From: Vicinamibacteria bacterium
Lineage (GTDB): Bacteria > Acidobacteriota > Vicinamibacteria > Fen-336
NCBI GenBank assembly: GCA_035577965.1
Contig: DATJYX010000081.1
Span: forward strand, 11,726-75,725
Length of the DNA: 64,000 bases
Direction: 5' to 3'
Below are positions 3 through 52,298 of this stretch, piece after piece. The stretch's first letter is position 1. Each line of letters starts with the position of its first letter. The notes beneath the pieces are model-generated. The model ran no database searches. It was not told the origin of the DNA and worked only from the letters and a program-made list of their open reading frames with translations. Made by a program: the position numbers and the translations under genes.

Positions 3-779
3 TCAAGGGGACGGGGACTCGGCCTCGAGAGTCGCCCGGAACGTCTCGACGTTGCGCATCCTGCGCTTCACGTAGTCCATCGTCCCGCGGTCCTGGCGGA
101 GGCGCAGGCGCGCCACGGCGCCGGAGGCGAGGACGACGTCGCTCTCGGCGATGACGACGTCGCGCCACGCGGGGGCGGTGGAGCTGCCGTCGTCGACCTG
201 GTAGGCGAGGCGGAGCCGGTGCGGGCCGGCGAGCGGCGCCGGCACGGTCAGCGGGAGGCGGATCTCGCCGGCCGCGAGCTCGGGCGGGGCGGCCGCGAAC
301 CCGTCGGCGGCGGTGACGAAGAGCCGCTCGGGCGAGAAAACGAAGGAGTTCACCACGGCCTTCGGCAGGTCCTCGGGGTCGAGGTTCACGTCGGCGTACG
401 TGGCGACCACCCGGCCGTCCAGGCGCATCTCGAGGCGGAGGCTCGGGTCGAGGGGCGCCGACTTCGGGTCCCACGCCTGCCAGAACGCGTTGCCGGTCAC
501 CGCGACCACGAGGCGCGCCGGCGGCGGTGGTGGCGGCGGCGTGGGGGCCGGGGCGGGCGCGACGTTCAGCACCTCCTCCCTCCCGTCGTCGCGGCGGATG
601 CGCTCCACCTTGTCGGCGGGGATGACGAGGACGCCGTAGGGCGTTTCCACCCGCACCCGCCGCGTGATCCGGCCGACCACCTTGCCCGTCACGCGGTCGC
701 CGTTCGTCAGGACGACGACGTCCGCGAGGAGCCGCGGCGCGGCGAGCAGCACGGCCAGCGCGGCGAGGGCGTGGCGCAT
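3..779 (-). CDS. Secreted hypothetical protein with Pro-rich linker
   Basis: Signal-peptide-like MRHALAALAVLLAAPRLLA followed by DVVVLTNGDRVTGKV; ATG at 779 overlaps the upstream stop (TGATG). Confidence 0.75.
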   Translation of the reverse strand: MRHALAALAVLLAAPRLLADVVVLTNGDRVTGKVVGRITRRVRVETPYGVLVIPADKVERIRRDDGREEVLNVAPAPAPTPPPPPPPARLVVAVTGNAFWQAWDPKSAPLDPSLRLEMRLDGRVVATYADVNLDPEDLPKAVVNSFVFSPERLFVTAADGFAAAPPELAAGEIRLPLTVPAPLAGPHRLRLAYQVDDGSSTAPAWRDVVIAESDVVLASGAVARLRLRQDRGTMDYVKRRMRNVETFRATLEAESPSP

Positions 780-2551
780 CAGCCCTTCCGGAAGAGCCGC
801 CCCAGGAGGCCGCCCCCGGCCTCGTCCGGGGGCGCTTCGGGGCCGGGAGCGTTCCGCGAGAGGTAGAGGGCCGCCTCCTCGTGATCCGGCTTCAGCTCGA
901 TCACCCGCCGGTAGGTGCTGAGGGCCCGCGCCTTCAACCCTCTCTCGGCGTAGATCGAGGCGAGGAGGGCCCAGGCGTCGACGGCCTGCGGGCTCTCGCG
1001 GGTGGCCGCGAGCAGCACCTCCTCCGCCTCCTTGACCCACTTGGGGTTCTTCGCCTTGCTGCGGGCCAGGAGGAGCTGGCCGCGAAGGCGGACCTTCCCC
1101 TGTGTCGCGGGGAGGGCCGGCTCGAGGAGCTGGATGGCCTCCCAGTACTTCTCCTGCTCCACGAGCTTGGCCGCCCTGCGGACCGCCTCCTCGGCGAGAC
1201 GCGCCTCCTCCGCAGGGTCGCGAGGGGGCTCGGGCGCGGCGGCCTGTGCGGGCGCCGCCGCCGCGGGCCCCGCCGCCGCACCCGGAGGCTCGGACGGCAC
1301 GCGACGCACGCGGCCCAGCCGCTCTTCGTAGTCGGCCCTCTTGCGCGGGTCGCGCAGCACGTCGTAGGCCTCGCCGAGGCGGATGAACACCGCCTCGAGC
1401 TTGTCCCGCAGGTCGCCGAGGGAGGCCCCGTGGTGGACGTCGGGGTGGAAGCGCTTGGCGAGGCGGAAGTAGGCCTCCTTGACCTCGGCCTCCCCGACCG
1501 AGCGCGCGAGCCCCAGGACCTCGAAGTGCGTGCGCGTCTTGAGCCCCTCCCAGGCCGCGAGGATCTCCTGGCGCCGCTCGGCGCCCTTCTCGTCGGCCGG
1601 ACCGGCGGGAGCGGCCGGCGTCGCCGCTGCGGCCGGAGGGGGGGGAGGGGCGGTCGGTGCGGCATGCGGCGGCGAGGAAGCCGGCCTCGTCGGCGCAGCC
1701 GGTCTCGGCGGCTCGTGCGCCGGCGGAGGAGAGACGGGCCGCGGCGGCTCAGGCGCCGGTGGCGAGGGGTGGGCTCCGGCCGGTGGCGTCGGCGGCACGG
1801 GCGCGGACGACGTGGCGCCGGCCGGCGCGGCCGCGGTGCGCGGGCGCCGGGCCTCCGTGAACTGGACGACTCCCGTCGACATCAGGCCGAGCAGGCAGCG
1901 CTGCGTCTTCTCGGACGCCAGCGGGATCATCTGCACGACCTCCCGCGCGCTCGCCACCCCGTCGATGCGCGACAGCACGAACCCGTCCTCCGGCGACAGG
2001 GTGAGCTTCTGGAAGCGGAGCAACGGGTCGGAGGAGAGGGCGAGGACCCGGTCGATGTCGCCGAGGGAGTAGCGGACCACGTCCGGATCGCGGATCGCCC
2101 GCACCGCCTCCAGGATGAGGTCGCCCGTGGAGAGCTTGAGGGTGAGCTCGCTCGGCCCGGCGTCGGGCTCCTCCGCGAACGCGTAGGTGCCGTCGGGCCA
2201 GGTGAACATCTTCGACAGCATCTCGTGGACGTGCAGCGCAACCGCGTCCTCGAGGCCGCTCGCGTCCAGGAGGCCCAGCTCGGCCAGCACCTCTCCGAGC
2301 CGTCTCTTGTCGCGGACCACGATGGCCGTCGCGCGCTCGAGGTCGGCGGCGGTGAGGAGCTGCCGCCGCACCAGCATCTCCCCGAGCCGCTCCTCCACGA
2401 CGTTCGTGTGGGCGTTCACGATGTGGCCGTGGCGGAAGCGCAGGCTCTGCCGCTCCGGTCCGCGGACGAGCGTGAGGTTGCCGGTCCGCCGACCGACGTA
2501 GATCTCGCGGAGGAGGCCGGGGACGACTCCTTCGGCGAGGTCGCCCTTCAT
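779..2551 (-). CDS. DUF4388 - Pro-rich linker - DnaJ domain - TPR protein
   Basis: N-terminal MKGDLAEG...TG.L.L...F..G.I pattern (DUF4388); J-domain HFEVLGL...AYFRLAKRFHPD with intact HPD; C-terminal TPR-like helices. Confidence 0.85.
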   Translation of the reverse strand: MKGDLAEGVVPGLLREIYVGRRTGNLTLVRGPERQSLRFRHGHIVNAHTNVVEERLGEMLVRRQLLTAADLERATAIVVRDKRRLGEVLAELGLLDASGLEDAVALHVHEMLSKMFTWPDGTYAFAEEPDAGPSELTLKLSTGDLILEAVRAIRDPDVVRYSLGDIDRVLALSSDPLLRFQKLTLSPEDGFVLSRIDGVASAREVVQMIPLASEKTQRCLLGLMSTGVVQFTEARRPRTAAAPAGATSSAPVPPTPPAGAHPSPPAPEPPRPVSPPPAHEPPRPAAPTRPASSPPHAAPTAPPPPPAAAATPAAPAGPADEKGAERRQEILAAWEGLKTRTHFEVLGLARSVGEAEVKEAYFRLAKRFHPDVHHGASLGDLRDKLEAVFIRLGEAYDVLRDPRKRADYEERLGRVRRVPSEPPGAAAGPAAAAPAQAAAPEPPRDPAEEARLAEEAVRRAAKLVEQEKYWEAIQLLEPALPATQGKVRLRGQLLLARSKAKNPKWVKEAEEVLLAATRESPQAVDAWALLASIYAERGLKARALSTYRRVIELKPDHEEAALYLSRNAPGPEAPPDEAGGGLLGRLFRKG

Positions 2552-2577
2552 GCCGGGGTGCCGCGGACCCGCACGCT

Positions 2578-3615
2578 CTAGCGTTTCCGGGTCGGGGCGG
2601 CCGCGAGGTCCTGCGGGTTCAGCGAGTGGACGAGCGGCAGGTCCTTCACGGTGAGCAGGCCGGCCGGGGCGGCGAGCACCTTCGGGAGGCTGTTCAGGAG
2701 CACGGCCGCGGCGGCCATGTCGCCGTTGACGCCCCCCGCGATCGTGGCGTCCACCGGGGGGTCGCCGTCCACGAGGACGTGGTCGCGGGGGGACTCCGCC
2801 CCGACGTAGACCTGCAGGTCGAGGCTGATCGCGAGCTCGCCCTCGCGGTAGGCGCGCACCCCCTGCTTGATGCCGGCCGCGGCGCCGGCCGGGATGCGCA
2901 GGTACTCGGTGTCGAGGTCGCGGGGGGCGATCGCGGGCTCGAGGGTCTCGTCCACGCGGTCGAGCTTCCAGCCGAGGGCGTCCGCGATCATGTGCGCCGA
3001 CTCGACGAGCCCCACGTGCCGCACCGCGCCCTCGGTGACCGCGCGGCGGAACTGCCCGAGGTTGAGCCCCGCCCCGACGCGCCGCTGGAGGGGCAGCTTG
3101 CGCGCCGCCGCGTCCACCACGCGGCTCACCGACACCCTCCGCACCCGGGCGCAGGGCGCGGTGAGGGTCAGGGCCAGAGCGTCCATGGCGAAGCCGGGGT
3201 TCACCCCCGTCGCGAGCACCGACACCTTCTTCTTCCGGGCGAGACGATCCAGCTCCTTGAAGCCGGCGGCGTGGGACGGCACCGGCCAGGCCAGCTCCTC
3301 GCAGGTGGTGAGGACGTTGATCCGCCGGGCCACGAGGGCGGCGATCTGCGGCTTCACCTCCTTGAGCAGGGACGACGTGCACACGAAGGCGACGTCGGCC
3401 CGCACCCTCTTGAAGAACCGGTCCGGGTTCCCCTCCACCTTGACCTTCAGCTTCCGCGGGAGGCCGAGGACGGTGCCCACGTCCTTGCCCGCGTGGAGGG
3501 GCGAAGGGTCGACGGCCGCCACCAGCTTCAGGGCCGGCGTCTGAAGCACGGCGCGCGCGACCGACTGGCCGACCGGCCCCAGCCCGGCGATCGCGACCTT
3601 CAGCGTCCGAGCCAT
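2578..3615 (-). CDS. NAD(P)-dependent amine dehydrogenase / 2,4-diaminopentanoate dehydrogenase (Ord)-like, DapB-fold family, paralog 1
   Basis: GLGPVG Rossmann motif, TTCEEL, GVNPGFAMD, GGVNGD. Confidence 0.8.
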   Translation of the reverse strand: MARTLKVAIAGLGPVGQSVARAVLQTPALKLVAAVDPSPLHAGKDVGTVLGLPRKLKVKVEGNPDRFFKRVRADVAFVCTSSLLKEVKPQIAALVARRINVLTTCEELAWPVPSHAAGFKELDRLARKKKVSVLATGVNPGFAMDALALTLTAPCARVRRVSVSRVVDAAARKLPLQRRVGAGLNLGQFRRAVTEGAVRHVGLVESAHMIADALGWKLDRVDETLEPAIAPRDLDTEYLRIPAGAAAGIKQGVRAYREGELAISLDLQVYVGAESPRDHVLVDGDPPVDATIAGGVNGDMAAAAVLLNSLPKVLAAPAGLLTVKDLPLVHSLNPQDLAAAPTRKR

Positions 3616-3630
3616 GCCCGCGCCCGCCGC

Positions 3631-3861
3631 CTAGCGCTCCACCTCGATCGACGAGACCTCGGCCTCCGGCCGCGTGGCGATGATCGCGGTCGCGGCGATG
3701 GGCAGGAGGGTCGTGTAGCTGCCGCCCTGGAGGGCCAACGTGACCTCGTAGTAGCCCTCGGGCGAGACGCGCACGAGGCGGCCGTTCGCGGCCTTGGTGC
3801 CCCCGAGCAGGTTCGCCAGGAGGTCGCTGCTGATCTTGACCGTCGCCTCGCGCTCGATCAT
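3631..3861 (-). CDS. Small hypothetical protein (76 aa)
   Basis: MIEREATVKISSDLL...IEVER starts 2 nt after the lat stop and fills the gap between lat and the Ord-like gene; GC-rich third codon positions. Confidence 0.75.
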   Translation of the reverse strand: MIEREATVKISSDLLANLLGGTKAANGRLVRVSPEGYYEVTLALQGGSYTTLLPIAATAIIATRPEAEVSSIEVER

Positions 3862-3863
3862 CG

Positions 3864-5201
3864 CTACAACTCCTTCAGGCTCTTGCGCACGATCTCCAGG
3901 GCGGCGTCCGCCTCGGCGGGGGCGAGGTCGAGGGGCGGGCGGAAGCGGATCGACCGCGTCCCGCACGCGAGCAGCAGGAGGCCGTTCGCGAGCAGGAGGT
4001 CCTGCGCCTTGTCGCGCCGCTCCGGCGTGTCGAGGTCGAAGGCGATCATCAGCCCCCGGCCCCGGGCGTTCGTCATGACCCCGCCGAGCTCCGCCTCGAC
4101 CCCGCGCAGCCCGTCGAGGAGCCAGTCCCCGACGACGCGGGCGTTCTCGACGAGCCGGTCCTCGTGGATCACCTCGAGGTAGCGAGCGGCCCGGACCATG
4201 TCGGTGAGCCCGCCGCCCCACGTGGAGTTGATGCGCGAGGACACCTTGAAGACGTTCTCCGGCTCCTCGTCGACCCGCGGGCCGACCATGCAGCCGCAGA
4301 CCTGCATCTTCTTGCCGAAGGCGACCGCGTCCGGCTCGAGGCCGAAGTGCTCGTGGGCCCACATCTTCCCGGTGAGGCCGACCCCCGTCTGCACCTCGTC
4401 GACGATGAAGAAGGCGTCGTGCTCCCGCGCCTTGCGCTGCAGGGCCTGCAGGAAGGGCGCGCGGAAGTGGACGTCGCCGCCCTCGGCCTGGATGGGCTCG
4501 ATGATGACGGCCGCCACGTCGTCCGGGTTGTCGGCGAAGGCCCGGTCGATCTGGTCGAGCGCCCGCTCCTCGGCCGCCGCCACGTCCCTCTCCACCTCGG
4601 GCGTCACGGGGAAGCGCAGGCCGGGGTTGTCGATCCTCGGCCACTTGAACTTCGGGAAGAGGTCGGTCTTCTTCGGGTCGGTGTTGGTGAGCGAGAGCGT
4701 GTAGCCCGAGCGCCCGTGGAAGGCCCGCCTGAAGTGGATGACCTGCTGCCCCTTCTCGCCGGGGATGCCCTTCGCCCGGTTCCGGCGCACCTTCCAGTCG
4801 AAGGCGGTCTTGAGCGCGTTCTCGACACCCAGCGCTCCCCCTTCGATGAAGAAGGCGTAGCGCATGTGCGCAGGCATGGCGAGGCGGCCGAACACGTCCA
4901 CGAACCACGCGTACTCGACGCTGTAGAGGTCCGACAGGGAGGGCTTGAGCAGCGCCACGCGGTGGAGGACCTTCAGGAACTCGGGGTCCTTCATCTTCGG
5001 GTGGTTGTGGCCGACGGGGTTCGAGCCGAAGAAGGAGCAGAAGTCGAGGAGGTCGCGCCCGGCGCGGGCGTCGTGGAGCCAGGCGCCGTGGCTCTTCTCG
5101 ATGTCGAAAACGATGTCGAAGCCGTCGGCGAGAGTGTGCCGGGCGAGGACCTCGTGGACCTCGGCCGGGGAAGGGGACTTGTAGGTCGTCGCTAGGGTCA
5201 T
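3864..5201 (-). CDS. lat: L-lysine 6-transaminase (class III PLP aminotransferase)
   Basis: FIEGGALGVENALKTAFDWK, AFHGRSGYTLSLTNT, EPIQAEGGD, DEVQTG, FGKK (PLP Lys), INSTWGG. Confidence 0.92.
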   Translation of the reverse strand: MTLATTYKSPSPAEVHEVLARHTLADGFDIVFDIEKSHGAWLHDARAGRDLLDFCSFFGSNPVGHNHPKMKDPEFLKVLHRVALLKPSLSDLYSVEYAWFVDVFGRLAMPAHMRYAFFIEGGALGVENALKTAFDWKVRRNRAKGIPGEKGQQVIHFRRAFHGRSGYTLSLTNTDPKKTDLFPKFKWPRIDNPGLRFPVTPEVERDVAAAEERALDQIDRAFADNPDDVAAVIIEPIQAEGGDVHFRAPFLQALQRKAREHDAFFIVDEVQTGVGLTGKMWAHEHFGLEPDAVAFGKKMQVCGCMVGPRVDEEPENVFKVSSRINSTWGGGLTDMVRAARYLEVIHEDRLVENARVVGDWLLDGLRGVEAELGGVMTNARGRGLMIAFDLDTPERRDKAQDLLLANGLLLLACGTRSIRFRPPLDLAPAEADAALEIVRKSLKEL

Positions 5202-5366
5202 CGTGGAGCTCCTTTGGGGTAGGCCATGGCCAGGATGGGCGGTCGTGAGGCTCCGCCCTAGGTCATTCCCCGGTCGTATTGCGACAAGAGCTCTCGATTC
5301 AGTGCTTTAGCCACGACAGACCTGCTTGGACGCGGAGTGCCCGTCCCAGGTTTGTCCAATGCTAGC
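5202..5366 (-). promoter_or_regulatory. Extended -10 promoter (TGcTAGCAT) and ~150-nt structured 5' leader of lat
   Basis: Reverse strand reads TGCTAGCAT near 5358-5366, then several hairpins and an AAAGGAG SD before the lat ATG. Confidence 0.45.
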
Positions 5367-5421
5367 ACAGGTTTAGGGCGGGAGGCGGGTCCCGCCGCGG
5401 CGGTATAATCGCGCTCCCTTC

Positions 5422-6411
5422 ATGGACGAGCCCATCGATCCCGGCTTCCTGCGCTCCTCCGAGCTCTTCGAGAACCAGCCGCCGGAGGTCGTTCGAGCGG
5501 TGCTCGCCCAGGGGCAGCTCCTCGAGTTCGGCCCCGGCGACGTCGTCTTCCGGCAGGGGGACCAGGGGGACCGGCTCTTCGTGGTGAAGAGCGGCGTCCT
5601 CGAGGTCGTGACCGTTCCCTCCGACGGCTCGGACCCGGTCGTGGTCGCCTACCTGGGCACCGGGGAGGTGATCGGGGAGCTCGCCCTCCTCACCGGCTCG
5701 CCGCGGAGCGCCACCGTTCGCTCACCGGAGCACGCCGAGCTCTTCGCGGTGGAGAAGCCCGTCTTCCTCGACCTCATGGACGTCCTGCCCGCCTTCGCCC
5801 GCAACCTGTCGGTCGTGCTGGCGAAGCGGCTGGAGACGACCACTCTCAAGGTGCCGCGCGCCTCGGGGAAGCAGCTCCAGGGCAACCTCCGGTTCTTCGA
5901 CCTCGCCACCGTCATCCAGACCCTCATCGGCTCCCACCAGACGGGGGCTCTCGTCGTGAGCCAGGACAAGCACCGGCTCGCCGAGATCTTCTTCCTCCGG
6001 GGGAACATCGCCCGCGCGCGATACCGGCAGCTGGTCGGGGACGACGCGGTCTTCCAGCTCTTCCAGAGCCCGGTCGAGGGCGAGTTCTCCTTCACCGGGC
6101 GGGAGGTGCGGGAGGACGAGGTGCAGACCGAGATCTCGATGCCCGCGATCTCCCTGCTCATGGAGTCCGTCCGGCTCCAGGACGAGCTGCCCGTGCTCCA
6201 GGAGCGGATCGGCGATCCGCGGAGGGTCTTCCGCCAGAAGACCGCGCAGCTCGCGTGGGAGGACCCCGACACGATCGAGCTGGCGGCGGCGGTCTGGTCG
6301 CGGCTCAAGAAGGGGGCGAGCGTCGAGGACCTGCAGCGAGAGGTGGCGCGCTCCTCGTACGCGATCTACCGCACCCTCGTGACGCTGCTGGACGGGGGGC
6401 AGATCGGCTGA
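5422..6411 (+). CDS. Cyclic-nucleotide-binding domain + DUF4388 protein
   Basis: cNMP motifs VFRQGDQGDRLFVVKSG and GEVIGELALLTGSPRSATV; LQGNL..FDLATVIQ DUF4388 start; TATAAT at 5404-5409. Confidence 0.88.
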   Translation: MDEPIDPGFLRSSELFENQPPEVVRAVLAQGQLLEFGPGDVVFRQGDQGDRLFVVKSGVLEVVTVPSDGSDPVVVAYLGTGEVIGELALLTGSPRSATVRSPEHAELFAVEKPVFLDLMDVLPAFARNLSVVLAKRLETTTLKVPRASGKQLQGNLRFFDLATVIQTLIGSHQTGALVVSQDKHRLAEIFFLRGNIARARYRQLVGDDAVFQLFQSPVEGEFSFTGREVREDEVQTEISMPAISLLMESVRLQDELPVLQERIGDPRRVFRQKTAQLAWEDPDTIELAAAVWSRLKKGASVEDLQREVARSSYAIYRTLVTLLDGGQIG

Positions 6412-6581
6412 TGCACCGGAGCGAGCCGACACGCCGCGCTTCGCGGCGTAGGGGGAGGCTCGCGAGGGATCTAGGCCAACGCGTGACCGCTCGGTGAGAC
6501 CCCCCTTCGAGGTACTCTTTCCGCCGGCTCAGATTCTTCGGGTGCCTCCCGGCGGCCGGGACATCTTCCTCGTCGGCACCC

Positions 6582-7170: not shown

Positions 7171-7608
7171 GTGCCGCCGACGGTCTCCTGCCCCCGCTGC
7201 GGGGCCGCGAACCGGGTGAGCGCGGAGCGCCTCCGGCGCGGCGCACAGGCGGTCTGCGGCCGGTGCCGGGCGCCGCTCCCCGCGCCCTCGGAGGTGCTCG
7301 AGGTCAGCGACCGGCACTTCGACGAGCAGGTGCTCTCCTCGCCCCTCCCCGTGCTCCTCGACGTGTGGGCGCCCTGGTGCGTGCCCTGCCGGGGGATGGA
7401 GTCCGTGATCGAGGAGCTCGCGTCGTCCCTCGCCGGCCGCGTCCGCGTGGCGAAGCTCAACATCGACCGGAGCCCCGAGGCGATGGGGCGCCTCCGCATC
7501 CAGGGCGTGCCCACGTTCATCGTCTTCAAGGACGGGCACGAGGTCTCGCGGATGGTGGGCTCCCGGGGCAGGGCCGATCTCCTGCGGGTCCTCGCCGGCG
7601 TGGCATGA
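7171..7608 (+). CDS. trxC: Thioredoxin 2 (TrxC-type) with N-terminal zinc finger
   Basis: CPRC...CGRC zinc site; active site WAPWCVPC; cis-Pro motif IQGVPT. Confidence 0.85.
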   Translation: MPPTVSCPRCGAANRVSAERLRRGAQAVCGRCRAPLPAPSEVLEVSDRHFDEQVLSSPLPVLLDVWAPWCVPCRGMESVIEELASSLAGRVRVAKLNIDRSPEAMGRLRIQGVPTFIVFKDGHEVSRMVGSRGRADLLRVLAGVA

Positions 7609-8520: not shown

Positions 8521-9519
8521 ATGAAGCGCACTGCATTCGTCGCGTTCGTGGGGGCGAGCCTCCTCTACTCGATCGCGAGCGCCGCTCCCCGTGAGCTGAA
8601 GATCGCCGTCGTCGCCAAGAGCTCGTCGAACTTCGTCTTCCTGCCCGCCCGCCGAGGGGCCGAGGACGCTGCGCAGGCGCTCTCCCGCACGCTCGGCGCC
8701 CGCATCGAGGTGGCCTGGCTGACCCCCGACCACGAAGACGCCGCGCTGCAGGCCGAGGCGGTCCGACAGGCGGTGAGCCAGGGGATGGGCGCGGTCCTGA
8801 TCGCCTGCTCCGAAGCCGGCACCCTCACCCCGGCGATCAACCAGGCGGTCGAGAGGGGCCTGGCCGTGATGACTTTCGACAGCGACGCCCCCGGCTCCAG
8901 GCGCTTCGCCTTCTACGGCGCCGACGACGCCGACGTCGGCGAGAAGGTGATGGCCGAGGTGGCCGGCCTGCTGTCCGGGCGGGGAAAGGTCGCCGTGCTC
9001 GCCGGCAATGCCGCCGCGCCCAACCTGAAGGCACGGGCCGACGCGGCGCGGCGGACGGCGGGCCGCTTCCCCGGCCTCGAGGTCGTCGAGGTGGTCCACC
9101 ACGTCGAGACGCCCCAGGACGCCGTGGCCGCGGTTCTCAAGACCGAGGCCGCCCATCCCGATCTCGCGGGCTGGGCGATGGTCGGAGGCTGGCCGCTCTT
9201 CCGCTCCAGCCAGAGCCTGGCCTTCATGGAAGACCTGAAGAAGCGCGGCCTCAAGGTGGTCGCGGTCGACGCCCTGCCCGAGCAGCTCAGCTACGTGGAT
9301 CGAGGGCTCGTGCCCGTGCTGTGGGCCCAGCCGACCTACCTCTGGGGCAAGGTCGGGGTCGAGTCCATCGTCGACAAGGTCCTCCTCGGGAAGACGGTGC
9401 CGGAGCGAGTCACGATGGACCTGGTGCGGGTCTCGCGCCAGAACCTGGGCTCGTGGTCGCGCCAGCTCAAGGGCTGGGGGTTCAGCGGCATCCCCGACGA
9501 GTATCTCCGGCTGGAGTAG
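8521..9519 (+). CDS. Periplasmic sugar-binding protein (RbsB/LacI-type SBP), orphan
   Basis: Signal peptide; VMTFDSDAP, FYGADDADVG, VLWAQPTYLWG patterns. Confidence 0.85.
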   Translation: MKRTAFVAFVGASLLYSIASAAPRELKIAVVAKSSSNFVFLPARRGAEDAAQALSRTLGARIEVAWLTPDHEDAALQAEAVRQAVSQGMGAVLIACSEAGTLTPAINQAVERGLAVMTFDSDAPGSRRFAFYGADDADVGEKVMAEVAGLLSGRGKVAVLAGNAAAPNLKARADAARRTAGRFPGLEVVEVVHHVETPQDAVAAVLKTEAAHPDLAGWAMVGGWPLFRSSQSLAFMEDLKKRGLKVVAVDALPEQLSYVDRGLVPVLWAQPTYLWGKVGVESIVDKVLLGKTVPERVTMDLVRVSRQNLGSWSRQLKGWGFSGIPDEYLRLE

Positions 9520-9643
9520 CCCCGACGGGACGGGTCGAGCATCCGCGCGGCGAGAGGCCGATCAGCGTGCTGAGGGCGAGGGCGGGGGGGACGTGCGCGG
9601 CCGAGCCGCCGCCCTTCGCCGCCCGCAGCGGCTCAAGGCGATC

Positions 9644-10582
9644 TCACTCGAAGCGCAGGCCGATCGTCTCTCCCACGGACCGCACCCGGTCGCGGGCCGC
9701 GTCGTACTCCGACTCGCTCGGGAGATGCTCGAGCATGAGGGGCGCGTCGGGGCAGTGGCGGCCGTGCTCGGAGAGGAAGACGGCGTAATCGATCGAGCCC
9801 TGGCCGACGCGGACCTCCCGGAAGTGGACGGCCATCTCCACGTCCCAGGTCAGGTCCTTGGCGTGCACGCTCGCGATGCGCGGGCCGAGCTTGGCGTAGC
9901 ACTCGCGGAGGAGGTCGCTCGAGCGGTAGTAGCGCTCCGGCGATTGGACGAGGTTGCAGGGGTCGAGGTGGACGGCGAAGGCCTTCCGCTCCACGGCCTT
10001 CAGCATCCGCAGGCACGCGTCGGGGCTGTCCGGGAGAGACCAGCCCATCATCTCGTAGCAGAAGGTGGTCCGCGTGGGCCGGACGGCGTCGAGGATCTTC
10101 CGGGCGTTCTCGACGGCGGCGTCGAAGAAACGGTCGGAGAGGTTGTCGGGGTGGGGGCCGAACCAGCTCGTTGGGCTGAACGACCCCGCAATGTCGACGC
10201 AGCAGCGCGCGCCCGCCGCCTCGGCGAGGGCGAGGCCGTCCGTGACCGTAGCGAGGTTCTTCCTTCGGGCCTCGGGGTCGGGATCGAGGAGGTTCACCCA
10301 GCGGCCGACCTCGGCGATCGCGACGTCGTGGCGGGCGAAGGCCGCGACCGTCGCCCGGATCCGCTCGCGGTCGTCGAGGCGGATCGTGGGACAGTAGGCG
10401 GCGCGGTAGCCCTTGGCGCGATGGGCCGCGGCGAGCGCCTCGGGATCGTCGCCGGGCACGGAGAGCGGCGCGCCGAGGCGGAGGCGGGCGGAGGGCGCCT
10501 CCGGGGCGGCGGTGGCGAAGGCGCCGGCCGCCGCGGAGCCGCAGGCGGCGAGGAACGTGCGGCGATCGAGGAAGGAGTGCAT
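9644..10582 (-). CDS. Sugar phosphate isomerase/epimerase (AP_endonuc_2 TIM barrel) with Tat-like signal
   Basis: DRRTFLAACG twin-Arg leader; EMMG, HLDPCN, HAKD, MLEH metal-ligand motifs; TAGAAT -10 at 10620-10625 (minus). Confidence 0.85.
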   Translation of the reverse strand: MHSFLDRRTFLAACGSAAAGAFATAAPEAPSARLRLGAPLSVPGDDPEALAAAHRAKGYRAAYCPTIRLDDRERIRATVAAFARHDVAIAEVGRWVNLLDPDPEARRKNLATVTDGLALAEAAGARCCVDIAGSFSPTSWFGPHPDNLSDRFFDAAVENARKILDAVRPTRTTFCYEMMGWSLPDSPDACLRMLKAVERKAFAVHLDPCNLVQSPERYYRSSDLLRECYAKLGPRIASVHAKDLTWDVEMAVHFREVRVGQGSIDYAVFLSEHGRHCPDAPLMLEHLPSESEYDAARDRVRSVGETIGLRFE

Positions 10583-50266: not shown

Positions 50267-51268
50267 CTACTTGCCGCCGGCGAAGGAGGGGAGGGCCAGG
50301 CTCCGCATCGTGTGGAGGCCGGGGGGCGCGGCGAGGGCCTTCGGGATCGTGTTCACGGCGATCGAGTGGGTGGCGACGTCCCCGTGGTACCCGCCGAGCG
50401 CCTTCACGTGCAGGGCCGGCGAGCCCTCGATCTCGACGCTGTCGTAGGTCTCCGGCGCGCCCAGGTACGCCTCCATGTGGAGGGTGATCACGGGCTTGCC
50501 CTTGACGTAGCCCACGCCGTCCTGGACGATGCCGCAGACCTTCCCCGCCTCGACTCGGAGGAACTGGCTCTCGACCGGCGCCCCGGCGATCTTCGGCTGG
50601 ATCTCGTCGGTGATGCGATCGAGCTTCCAGCCGAGGCCGTCCGCGATCATCGCCACCGACTCGGTGAGCCCCACGTGGCGCACGGTGAGGGCCTTGACCT
50701 TCTCCGCGAACTCCGCGGGGGTGAGGCCGGAGCCGATCTTCTGCTGGAAGGGCAGGCGGCGGATCCGCGCGTCCTGGACGCGCTCGACGTGCACCGCGTC
50801 GACCCGCTCGCAGATGGCGGTGAGGGTGAGGGGCAGGGCGTCCATGGCGAACCCGGGGTTGACCCCCGTCCCGACCACCGCCACCTTCGCCTTCTTCGCC
50901 GCGGCGTCGATCTTCCGCGCGAGGGGCCGGTTCGAGTACCAAGGGTAGGACAGCTCCTCCGTCGTCGAGACGATCGGGACCTTGTGCCTCAGGACGGCCT
51001 CGACCTGCGGCCACACCTTCTTGAGGGCCGAGCTCGTGCAGAGGACGGCGACCTGCGGCCTCGTCCTCCTGATCGCGGCCGCGGGGTCGGTCCCGACCTC
51101 GATCCCGCTCTTCTTCCCGAGGCCCACCACGTCGCCCAGGTCCCGGCCGGCCTTGCCGGGGTCGATGTCCACCGCGGACACGATCTTGAAGTTCTTCCGG
51201 GCCGCGAGCTGGCGGGCGACGCCCGCCCCGATCGGCCCCAGGCCCATGATCATCACCTTGGTCGGCAT
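50267..51268 (-). CDS. NAD(P)-dependent amine dehydrogenase / Ord-like, paralog 2
   Basis: GLGPIG, STTEEL, GVNPGFAMD, RLPFQQKIGSG, GGYHGDVAT. Confidence 0.85.
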   Translation of the reverse strand: MPTKVMIMGLGPIGAGVARQLAARKNFKIVSAVDIDPGKAGRDLGDVVGLGKKSGIEVGTDPAAAIRRTRPQVAVLCTSSALKKVWPQVEAVLRHKVPIVSTTEELSYPWYSNRPLARKIDAAAKKAKVAVVGTGVNPGFAMDALPLTLTAICERVDAVHVERVQDARIRRLPFQQKIGSGLTPAEFAEKVKALTVRHVGLTESVAMIADGLGWKLDRITDEIQPKIAGAPVESQFLRVEAGKVCGIVQDGVGYVKGKPVITLHMEAYLGAPETYDSVEIEGSPALHVKALGGYHGDVATHSIAVNTIPKALAAPPGLHTMRSLALPSFAGGK

Positions 51269-51401: not shown

Positions 51402-52232
51402 TCACCTCAGGTGCTTGATCAGGATCACCTCGTTCGCGCGCTCGTTGTGGATCATCTCGTCCACGACCTGACGGGCGAGCAGGAGGCCGAAGCCGCCCGG
51501 CCGCAGGCCACGCGCCTCGCGCGCCTCGGCCACCGCGAGGGGGTCCTCGGGCCGGCCCAGGGCGGCGTGGGGCAGCGCGCCGAGGTCGAAGCCGGGACCG
51601 GGGTCGCGCAGGTGGAAGACCAGGGTGCGAGCGGTGCGCACTGCCACGACCTCCACCACCCGGTCCGGGTCGAAGCCGCCGCCGTACTCCATGGCGTTCA
51701 GGAGCACCTCGCGGAAGGCGAGCATGAGGTCGTCGCGGGGGGCCTCGGGCACGTCGGAGCGGAGCTCGGTGAGGAAATTCAAGAGGCGCTCCGCGCTCAG
51801 GAGGGCGCAGTTCACGCGCACCGAGATCCAGTCGGGCTTCGCGAACACGACCTCGATACCGTCCTTCCAGGAGTCGGCCCCGGCGGCCCGGGCCAGCATG
51901 TCGCCGATCTCGGCCGGGTCGAAGGGCGCGCTGAAGCAGGCGAAGGCCCTCCGCCGCAGGGCGAGGATCACGGCCTCGGGTGTCGCGCGCGGGGCGAGGA
52001 GGACGACCCTGACCCCGGGCCGGGCGCGGCGCACGTCGTCGAGGATCGCCGCGTCCTCCTCCAGGCTGGTCTCCGGCGAGGTGACGAGGACGTCGAAGGC
52101 CCGTCCGCGGAGCCGGCGGAGGGCGGCCGCGTCGCCCGACGCAACGTCGATCGGGTGGCCCTCCAGGAGGGGCGACGACCGCAGCGCCTTCAGGAGGGCG
52201 TCCTCGGGCGCGACCATCAGGATGCGGGCCAC
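51402..52232 (-). CDS. REC-like + RsbW-type HATPase_c_2 protein
   Basis: Degenerate receiver (FDVLVT, AVILALRRRAF...PF), then FREVLLNAMEYG, DPGPGFD, PGGFGLLLA..VDE; SD GGAGG before the GTG. Confidence 0.8.
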   Translation of the reverse strand: MARILMVAPEDALLKALRSSPLLEGHPIDVASGDAAALRRLRGRAFDVLVTSPETSLEEDAAILDDVRRARPGVRVVLLAPRATPEAVILALRRRAFACFSAPFDPAEIGDMLARAAGADSWKDGIEVVFAKPDWISVRVNCALLSAERLLNFLTELRSDVPEAPRDDLMLAFREVLLNAMEYGGGFDPDRVVEVVAVRTARTLVFHLRDPGPGFDLGALPHAALGRPEDPLAVAEAREARGLRPGGFGLLLARQVVDEMIHNERANEVILIKHLR

Positions 52233-52298
52233 GGCTGACCTCCGTGGAGGCATCTTACCCGGCCCCCGCCTTCCCGGGCCTCCGAGGACGCCCACGGA

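What the first reader, a model, noticed from the sequence alone, without database searches (positions are those of the whole stretch)
2578..5201. Lysine 6-transaminase co-operonic with an amine-dehydrogenase-family enzyme: candidate new lysine catabolic or pipecolate route
Seen: lat, a 76-aa gene and an Ord/native-AmDH-like gene in tandem with gaps of 2 and 15 nt. Established: Lat makes alpha-aminoadipate semialdehyde/P6C, usually followed by an aldehyde dehydrogenase or ProC. The Ord/nat-AmDH family carries out NAD(P)H-linked C=N chemistry with a catalytic Glu, retained here in TTCEEL. Inference: this enzyme may reduce the cyclic imine P6C to pipecolate, or otherwise recycle the semialdehyde.
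Basis: partly seen in the sequence, partly recalled or inferred. Interest (0 to 1): 0.6.

Follow-up and report, generated by a model that had tools for sequence, protein, structure and literature searches.

The report
Lysine transaminase operon with orphan dehydrogenase
A soil Acidobacterium keeps a lysine-degrading transaminase, a tiny unknown protein and an amine dehydrogenase of unknown natural substrate together as one conserved operon, which gives a testable clue to what that orphan enzyme group does.

Summary
On the minus strand lie lat (5201..3864), a 76-aa gene (3861..3631) and an Ord-family gene (3615..2578), with gaps of 2 and 15 nt.

- **Lat:** it passes NCBI's Lat equivalog model and keeps the PLP lysine and substrate residues of M. 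tuberculosis Lat.
- **Third gene:** it is not a 2,4-diaminopentanoate dehydrogenase. It belongs to the 'G1' native amine dehydrogenases (catalytic Glu106, Arg165, Arg172, His200), whose natural substrate is unknown (PMC11164908).
- **Conservation:** the trio is kept in one order of Vicinamibacteria (28 of 30 loci read), including lineages where all flanking genes differ.
- **New finding:** the small protein is mainly a lat companion. Two other Vicinamibacteria families have lat plus a 71-aa homolog and no dehydrogenase.
- **Function:** still open.
  - The pocket is the generic G1 pocket.
  - P6C dehydrogenase (Pcd) coexists with the trio in many genomes.
  - One complete genome keeps small+dehydrogenase without lat.

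First readers noted the same trio in two other genomes (e1-5243785, e1-5228804). Verdict: a real, lineage-restricted variant of a known pathway, of moderate interest.

The parts
3864..5201 (-). lat, L-lysine 6-transaminase (445 aa, P0001)
   Evidence: TIGR03251 scores 619.4 bits against a cut-off of 520.8, and PF00202 also hits. It aligns to M. tuberculosis Lat 2CIN at E 5e-129 and keeps K297 (PLP), E240, R419, R164 and T327. AAGGAG lies at 5214..5209.
3631..3861 (-). 76-aa conserved protein (P0002), a lat companion specific to Vicinamibacteria with an SH3/KOW-like small beta-barrel
   Evidence: No Pfam or NCBIfam family. Found in 97 of 401 Vicinamibacteria genomes. It shows a coding-type substitution pattern. 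The AF2 model has pLDDT 72 and five strands; the nearest folds are SH3, KOW and NdhS, all weak. Lys23, Gly36, Tyr38, Pro54 and Thr58 are kept in all rows shown, and the C-terminal acid-Arg (Glu/Asp75-Arg76) in nearly all. AAGGAG lies at 3875..3870 inside the lat 3' end.
2578..3615 (-). G1-type native amine dehydrogenase (345 aa, P0003), Ord/AmDH4 fold
   Evidence: PF19328 plus an N-terminal Rossmann domain. NF040740 is below its cut-off. The AF2 model has pLDDT 91 and TM 0.88-0.90 to AmDH4 6G1M and TtherAmDH 7XDU. Its pocket, SCEGVNFARVDRLVHVGLVGA, matches G1 rows of PMC11164908 Suppl. Data 5.
5202..5421 (.). 220-nt divergent intergenic region upstream of lat (presumed promoter and operator)
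   Evidence: No Rfam match. No sigma-70 consensus and no terminator in 2300..5500.
5422..6411 (+). divergent cNMP-binding + DUF4388 gene, a recurrent neighbour of lat (possible regulator; membership in the system is uncertain)
   Evidence: Pfam hits. The same architecture lies divergent from lat in family f102 (L163:3319-4407) and in L007, but not in L009.

Best explanation
This is a self-contained three-gene operon found in one order of Vicinamibacteria. SHOWN: Lat is a bona fide lysine 6-transaminase, so it makes 2-aminoadipate semialdehyde, which cyclises to the imine P6C. The small protein is a conserved companion of lat. A G1 native amine dehydrogenase was added behind the older lat-small pair. 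INFERRED: the dehydrogenase uses NAD(P)(H) to interconvert P6C and L-pipecolate. Hydride would go to or come from C6, with Glu106 on the ring nitrogen and Arg165/His200 (or Arg172) holding the carboxylate. In genomes without Pcd, such as this genus, it would drain the PLP-reactive P6C made by a PLP enzyme into pipecolate. Where Pcd exists, it could instead feed pipecolate into P6C and on to 2-aminoadipate. The role of the small protein (a Lat subunit or adaptor) is unknown.
For: - **Conservation.** All three genes are present in 28 of 30 loci of families f1/f99, in f98 (L166) and in L007, L009 and L058.
- **Unit behaviour.** In the roughly 60%-identity lineage only these three genes are shared with the window, and the flanks are unrelated.
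- **Tight packing.** The genes are closely spaced with Shine-Dalgarno boxes.
- **Lat is intact.** All Lat features tested are met.
- **Fit of the chemistry.** The fold family carries out NAD(P)H-linked C=N chemistry. The next-nearest fold is DapB, a cyclic-imine reductase.
- **Amino-oxo acids are accepted.** G1 enzymes with almost the same pocket turn over 2-amino-4-oxopentanoate, for example A0A540X1D9 and MGYP000278574580 (PMC11164908 Suppl. Data 2 and 5).
- **No Pcd in this genus.** Pcd was found in 0 of 16 genomes of the genus, nor in G059 (100% complete) or G278 (99% complete).
- **Larger pocket.** The typical pocket changes of the clade are to smaller residues (P8 Val to Ala, P19 Met to Val), which would suit a larger substrate.
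- **Long stem branch.** The clade sits on a stem of 0.43 with support 1.0, as expected after recruitment to a new job.
- **Reason for a linked sink.** P6C inactivates PLP (established knowledge from ALDH7A1 deficiency), so a sink linked to Lat makes sense.
Against: - No assay exists for this enzyme.
- The pocket is essentially the generic G1 'b' pocket. Some enzymes with no lat nearby share the identical 21 residues.
- The pocket has two arginines, whereas P6C has one carboxylate.
- Pcd coexists with the trio in f99 (13 of 18), f98 and several f1 genera, so the dehydrogenase is not simply a Pcd substitute.
- In the phylum sample, 57 of 128 lat-bearing genomes lack Pcd, and of those only the three f1 genomes carry this dehydrogenase.
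- G415 keeps small+dehydrogenase with no lat.
- ProC, a known P6C reductase, is present in this genome.
- G1 enzymes were inactive on piperidine-2,6-dicarboxylate and several diamino acids.
Confidence: 0.35

Rival explanations
1. The enzyme is a dicarboxylic amino-acid dehydrogenase. It either deaminates the L-glutamate made by Lat back to 2-oxoglutarate, making Lat plus dehydrogenase a net lysine epsilon-deaminating system, or it deaminates 2-aminoadipate to 2-oxoadipate further down the pathway.
For: The pocket has Arg165, Arg172 and His200. The two residues that hold the 2-amino group in Ord (His264, Gln266 of AmDH4) are replaced by Leu and Val. By analogy, 2-oxoglutarate is 4-oxopentanoate with the methyl replaced by a carboxylate, which is the change PMC11164908 infers for G1. 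A universal substrate would explain why the same pocket occurs without lat, why Pcd can coexist and why G415 keeps the enzyme without lat. Asp36 at the end of strand beta-2 suggests NAD+ is accepted, which would suit an oxidative direction.
Against: Canonical glutamate dehydrogenase genes are present in all trio genomes tested and in five G1-bearing Bathyarchaeia, so there is no gap to fill. By analogy with the (4S) amine of AmDH4, the stereochemistry would favour the D-isomer, which is my inference. G1 enzymes do accept an alpha-amino gamma-oxo acid. The 2-aminoadipate version needs an aldehyde dehydrogenase step, and no Pcd was found in this genus.
Confidence: 0.25
2. The enzyme has the same, still unknown, substrate as other G1 enzymes and has nothing to do with lysine. 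The linkage reflects shared regulation or chance fixation in one lineage.
For: The pocket is nearly identical to G1 enzymes without lat. A NetSyn survey found no consensus context for G1. The dehydrogenase is missing from the lat-small pairs of f102/f103, and it survives without lat in G415.
Against: The order and tight spacing are kept down to about 60% identity and across different neighbourhoods. The clade is monophyletic on a long branch and was never found away from the small gene in the loci read.
Confidence: 0.2
3. The enzyme is an epsilon-deaminating L-lysine dehydrogenase or aminoadipate-semialdehyde reductive aminase that works in parallel with Lat.
For: The family performs reductive amination of carbonyls with ammonia. 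G1 members accept amino-oxo acids. G415 has the dehydrogenase and Pcd but no lat, which would still give lysine to 2-aminoadipate.
Against: It would be redundant with Lat, or futile, within one operon. A terminal aldehyde leaves Arg172 without a partner, which is my inference from the pocket.
Confidence: 0.1
4. The enzyme is a true 2,4-diaminopentanoate dehydrogenase (Ord) of ornithine fermentation.
For: Its best NCBIfam hit is Ord, and some G1 enzymes show this activity.
Against: The score of 259 is below the 400 cut-off. Pocket positions P10, P12, P14, P18 and P19 differ from the invariant G2 residues. The neighbouring genes are signalling genes rather than ornithine-fermentation (ora/ort) genes.
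Confidence: 0.03

Closest known systems
G1 group of native amine dehydrogenases (Mayol 2019; Elisee 2024, PMC11164908)
   Same: Same fold, catalytic Glu at P3, Arg at P9 and P12, and His at P15. 19 of 21 pocket residues are identical to MGYP000278574580.
   Different: G1 has no known substrate and no consensus gene context. This clade sits on a long branch and is fixed behind lat and a small gene.
2,4-diaminopentanoate dehydrogenase Ord / AmDH4 (G2; PDB 6G1M, 7XDU)
   Same: TM 0.88-0.90 at 34% identity, with Glu, Arg and His aligned.
   Different: Asn163 becomes Val, Phe168 becomes Arg, Gln176 becomes Val, and His264/Gln266 become Leu/Val. It scores below the Ord cut-off, and the neighbouring genes are signalling genes, not ornithine-fermentation genes.
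Lat-Pcd route from lysine to 2-aminoadipate (Flavobacterium, Streptomyces, M. tuberculosis Rv3290c/Rv3293; from my own knowledge)
   Same: Same first enzyme; Lat residues are conserved.
   Different: No pcd lies next to lat, and none was found in this genus. The second enzyme has a different fold and chemistry, and there is an extra small protein.
Lat + ProC route to L-pipecolate (PMC5369227, PMC12899673)
   Same: Would give the same net reaction if the leading reading is right.
   Different: The reductase would be an AmDH-fold enzyme, not a P5C reductase. ProC is encoded elsewhere in this genome.
LysW amino-group carrier protein with the LysJ class-III transaminase
   Same: A small protein sits next to a class-III aminotransferase.
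   Different: This resemblance was rejected. The fold is an SH3-like barrel rather than a zinc ribbon, the C-terminus is ..VER rather than an acidic EDWGE tail, there is no ATP-grasp ligase nearby, and Lat keeps the residues for free lysine.

Membership tests
L-lysine 6-transaminase (TIGR03251, EC 2.6.1.36) | Score above the curated equivalog cut-off | tested here: met
   619.4 bits against 520.8, over residues 12-443.
L-lysine 6-transaminase (TIGR03251, EC 2.6.1.36) | PLP lysine and substrate residues of M. tuberculosis Lat (K300, E243, R422, R170, T330; numbering from memory) | tested here: met
   K297, E240, R419, R164 and T327 align. They are invariant in 16 Acidobacteriota Lat sequences.
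L-lysine 6-transaminase (TIGR03251, EC 2.6.1.36) | Transamination of the epsilon-amino group of L-lysine with 2-oxoglutarate | not testable with these tools
   Needs an enzyme assay.
2,4-diaminopentanoate dehydrogenase Ord (NF040740; nat-AmDH group G2) | Score above the curated equivalog cut-off | tested here: not met
   259.2 bits against 400.
2,4-diaminopentanoate dehydrogenase Ord (NF040740; nat-AmDH group G2) | G2 pocket: Asn P10, Phe/Tyr P12, Gln P14, His P18, Gln P19 | tested here: not met
   Val167, Arg172, Val180, Leu267 and Val269.
2,4-diaminopentanoate dehydrogenase Ord (NF040740; nat-AmDH group G2) | Ornithine-fermentation gene context (oraSE, ortAB) | tested here: not met
   The neighbours are lat, the small gene and DUF4388 signalling genes. 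The rest of the genome was not searched for ora/ort genes.
Native amine dehydrogenase, group G1 | Rossmann N-domain plus PF19328 C-domain, AmDH fold | tested here: met
   Pfam hits; model pLDDT 91 with TM 0.88-0.90 to 6G1M and 7XDU.
Native amine dehydrogenase, group G1 | Catalytic Glu at P3; Arg at P9, Arg at P12, His at P15 | tested here: met
   Glu106, Arg165, Arg172 and His200. The seven-residue spacing of the two arginines matches R162/R169 of E1QRK4.
Native amine dehydrogenase, group G1 | NAD(P)H-dependent amine/imine redox activity | not testable with these tools
   Needs an assay. Asp36 suggests NAD(H) is accepted.
P5C/P6C reductase ProC (TIGR00112) | Homology to the ProC family | tested here: not met
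   P0003 has no ProC-family hit. The genome's ProC lies on another contig. Any P6C reductase role would be by analogy only.

The most novel reading that the evidence does not exclude
The dehydrogenase is an NAD(P)-dependent P6C/L-pipecolate oxidoreductase. This would be the first natural function assigned to a G1 native amine dehydrogenase, and would suggest that G1 enzymes in general act on cyclic imino acids or their open amino-oxo forms. The 71-76-aa barrel protein would be a previously unknown subunit that couples or protects Lat.
Probability: 0.15. Interest if true: 0.7.

Novelty: new variant of a known kind. Interest (0 to 1): 0.5.

Why it matters
G1 enzymes numbered about 1,400 modelled sequences in 2024. 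They have no known natural substrate and no informative gene context (PMC11164908). This operon is a conserved context for one G1 clade and points to a short list of candidates that can be assayed in a day: P6C/pipecolate, glutamate/2-oxoglutarate, 2-aminoadipate and lysine. If the leading reading holds, it adds a non-homologous enzyme for pipecolate metabolism, a new biocatalyst scaffold for cyclic imines, and an unrecognised small partner of lysine transaminase in abundant soil Acidobacteria. If it fails, the operon is still a clean case of a lineage-specific gene module.

Tried and rejected
- **Complex prediction** (Lat + dehydrogenase + small protein): no verdict, ipSAE 0.00. This is not evidence either way.
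- **Small-protein family searches:** Pfam and NCBIfam gave nothing. The ESM Atlas returned only Acidobacteriota orphan clusters, with DUF4926/DUF4314 below 0.9. Foldseek PDB and Atlas gave only generic SH3, KOW and NdhS barrels at E >= 0.06. The profile search listed only close relatives.
- **LysW-like carrier and OrtA-like subunit ideas:** no support.
- **'Dehydrogenase replaces Pcd':** rejected, because Pcd coexists with the trio in f99, f98 and several f1 genera, and many lat-bearing Acidobacteriota lack both.
- **'G1 fills a missing glutamate dehydrogenase':** rejected.
- **'G1 fills a missing ProC':** inconsistent. ProC was found in G000, G415 and G405 but not in G059 or G278.
- **Neighbourhoods of 76 other G1 loci:** only lineage-specific synteny, with nothing metabolic.
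- **Neighbours of lat in 27 other Acidobacteriota:** lat stands alone or sits next to an Lrp/AsnC regulator or a GGDEF gene, with no small-protein homolog.
- **Sequence signals:** no riboswitch and no consensus promoter or terminator.
- **Literature:** no paper links nat-AmDHs with lat or P6C.
Full report
**What is there.** The window is about 73% G+C, so long spurious ORFs are common. Three minus-strand ORFs stand out by homology. They are lat at 5201..3864, a 76-aa ORF at 3861..3631 and a 345-aa ORF at 3615..2578. AAGGAG boxes precede lat and the small gene (read). The flanking genes are signalling-type: a divergent cNMP-binding+DUF4388 gene upstream and a DUF4388-DnaJ-TPR gene 26 nt downstream. 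No Rfam family, sigma-70 consensus or intrinsic terminator was found. Named close relatives come from Vicinamibacteria MAGs.

**Lat.** P0001 scores 619 bits on the Lat equivalog TIGR03251, whose cut-off is 520.8. It aligns end to end with M. tuberculosis Lat (2CIN, E 5e-129). It keeps the PLP lysine (K297) and the residues I recall as substrate-binding (E240, R419, R164, T327). These are invariant in 16 Acidobacteriota Lat sequences. I accept it as a lysine 6-transaminase.

**The dehydrogenase.** P0003 has the DAP_DH_C domain and a DapB-type Rossmann domain. It scores only 259 bits on the Ord equivalog, whose cut-off is 400. Its AlphaFold model (pLDDT 91) superposes on AmDH4 and TtherAmDH at TM 0.88-0.90 with 34% identity. 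DapB comes far behind at about 0.5.

I mapped the 21 pocket positions published for AmDH4 (PMC11164908, Suppl. Data 5) through the HMMER and MAFFT alignments. This gives SCEGVNFARVDRLVHVGLVGA. The key residues are catalytic Glu106 (P3), Arg165 (P9), Arg172 (P12) and His200 (P15), with Val167, Val180, Leu267 and Val269 at P10, P14, P18 and P19. That is the G1 signature, not the G2 (true Ord) signature.

The paper says the substrates of G1 are unknown. It also says a NetSyn context survey gave no clue, and that diaminopimelate, beta-lysine, 5-hydroxylysine, glutamine and piperidine-2,6-dicarboxylate were inactive. A few G1 enzymes with nearly this pocket do aminate 2-amino-4-oxopentanoate, namely A0A540X1D9 and, weakly, MGYP000278574580. 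Asp36 at the end of strand beta-2, with Ser38 and His41, suggests that NAD(H) is accepted and that dual specificity is possible. A 45%-identical paralog lies at 50267..51268 with another G1 pocket subtype and no lat nearby.

**The small protein.**
- It has no family in Pfam or NCBIfam.
- It is a real gene. About 280 clusters of 75-76 aa were found. Third-position differences dominate, and 53% of differing codons are synonymous in frame, against 17% and 8% out of frame.
- The model (pLDDT 72) is a five-stranded SH3/KOW-like barrel with a floppy C-terminal tail. Fold searches return only generic small barrels.
- Lys23, Gly36, Tyr38, Pro54 and Thr58 are kept in all rows shown, and the C-terminal acid-Arg in nearly all.

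**Is the association conserved?**
- *One representative genome per species.* Only four loci carry an ortholog of P0003 above 60% identity. All four have the small gene just upstream. The three with enough sequence have lat before it. The other 76 G1 loci, at 48% identity or less, have no lat.
- *401 Acidobacteriota genomes.* Lat occurs in 128. This count includes the unpublished genome G024 and its locus L106. Only the two genomes of the window's own family carry the trio. The other 27 lat loci read stand alone or sit by an Lrp/AsnC or GGDEF gene, and none has a small-protein homolog.
- *401 Vicinamibacteria genomes.* The small protein is found in f1 55/58, f98 1/1 and f99 17/18. Of 30 loci fetched, 28 hold all three genes. 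One is cut by a contig end. One (G555) holds a lat remnant with a large internal deletion.
- *Unit behaviour.* L007 is syntenic with the window throughout. In the roughly 60% lineage (L009, L058, L008) only the three genes are shared, and the flanks are unrelated.

**Two unexpected results.** First, families f102 (15/19) and f103 (8/8) have a 71-aa homolog of the small protein. It lies directly after lat in 8 of 11 loci read and within 3.4 kb in two more. These genomes have no ortholog of the dehydrogenase, only a 39-43% paralog far away. So lat-small appears to be the wider, probably older pair, and the dehydrogenase was probably added later. This agrees with the tree. The trio clade is monophyletic (support 1.0) on a stem of 0.43. 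Its sister, at support 0.885 with midpoint rooting, is the Vicinamibacterales paralog group. Second, G415 (99% complete) keeps small+dehydrogenase but has no lat at the locus or elsewhere with this query.

**What does the dehydrogenase do?** I tested three simple predictions.
1. *If it replaces Pcd, the two should exclude each other.* This genome's ALDHs do not reach the Pcd model; the best scores 366 bits against a cut-off of 730. The whole genus lacks it (0/16). But Pcd is present in f99 13/18, in f98, in several f1 genera, and in f102/f103. In the phylum sample, 57 of 128 lat-bearing genomes lack Pcd anyway. The prediction is rejected.
2. *If G1 enzymes are stand-in glutamate dehydrogenases, GDH should be missing.* It is present in all trio genomes tested and in five G1-bearing Bathyarchaeia.
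3. *If it replaces ProC, ProC should be missing.* ProC is present in G000, G415 and G405 but was not found in G059 or G278. This is inconsistent.

The pocket does not separate the trio clade from G1 'b' enzymes elsewhere. Identical 21-residue strings occur in both. The clade typically has the smaller residues Ala at P8 and Val at P19.

**Weighing the readings.**
- *For action on Lat's product:* operon logic, the cyclic-imine chemistry of the fold family, acceptance of amino-oxo acids by G1 relatives, the toxicity of P6C to PLP, the absence of Pcd in this genus and the enlarged pocket.
- *Why pipecolate:* among such reactions, P6C to pipecolate or the reverse is the only one that is neither redundant nor futile with Lat. 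The reverse direction also explains G415 and the genomes that have Pcd.
- *Against:* the generic, two-arginine pocket fits a dicarboxylate such as 2-oxoglutarate/glutamate (Lat's own co-substrate pair) or 2-oxoadipate/2-aminoadipate at least as well. The enzyme can persist without lat.
- *My odds:* P6C/pipecolate 0.35; dicarboxylic amino-acid dehydrogenase 0.25; same unknown G1 substrate unrelated to lysine 0.2; lysine epsilon-dehydrogenase 0.1; true Ord 0.03; the rest for something else.

**Prior records.** I found no paper linking nat-AmDHs with lat or P6C. First readers of this scan noted the same trio in two other genomes. Those notes are unchecked, and my surveys independently show that the trio recurs.

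**Verdict.** The association is conserved but restricted to one order of Vicinamibacteria. The small protein's primary tie to lat is new information.

Noticed in passing
window 50267-51268 (-): A second G1 amine dehydrogenase, 45% identical to P0003, with the pocket subtype STEGVNFARQDRFIHVGMAGT. It lies after an HATPase_c_2 (anti-sigma-kinase-like) gene at 51402-52295. A conserved upstream ORF cluster with no Pfam match recurs in about 36 related loci.
   Followed up: partly
window 5422-6411 (+); L163:3319-4407: A cNMP-binding + DUF4388 gene is divergently transcribed from lat in this family and again in family f102. It may be a cyclic-nucleotide-responsive regulator of the lat operon.
   Followed up: partly
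window 779-2551 (-): A DUF4388-DnaJ-TPR protein starts 26 nt after the dehydrogenase stop. It is syntenic in L007 but not in the more distant trio loci, so it is probably not part of the module.
   Followed up: partly
L171 (G415), L153 (G555), L166 (G405): Signs of lat decay inside the trio. G415 has lost lat altogether. G555 keeps only a fused N- and C-terminal remnant. In G405 lat aligns in two pieces in different frames, which may be a frameshift or a long-read indel error.
   Followed up: partly
L158 (G446): 7239-7448 and 6231-6416: Two copies of the small-protein gene lie about 1 kb apart downstream of lat in one f102 genome.
   Followed up: no
L159 (G454): The small gene lies about 15 kb from lat here. 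Two identical 455-aa ORFs (401-1765 and 9078-10442) lie about 4 kb and 3 kb on either side of it and look like copies of an insertion element.
   Followed up: no
genomes G059 and G278: ProC (TIGR00112) was not found in two 99-100% complete relatives, although it is present in the window's genome on contig C130. The route to proline in those genomes is unexplained.
   Followed up: no
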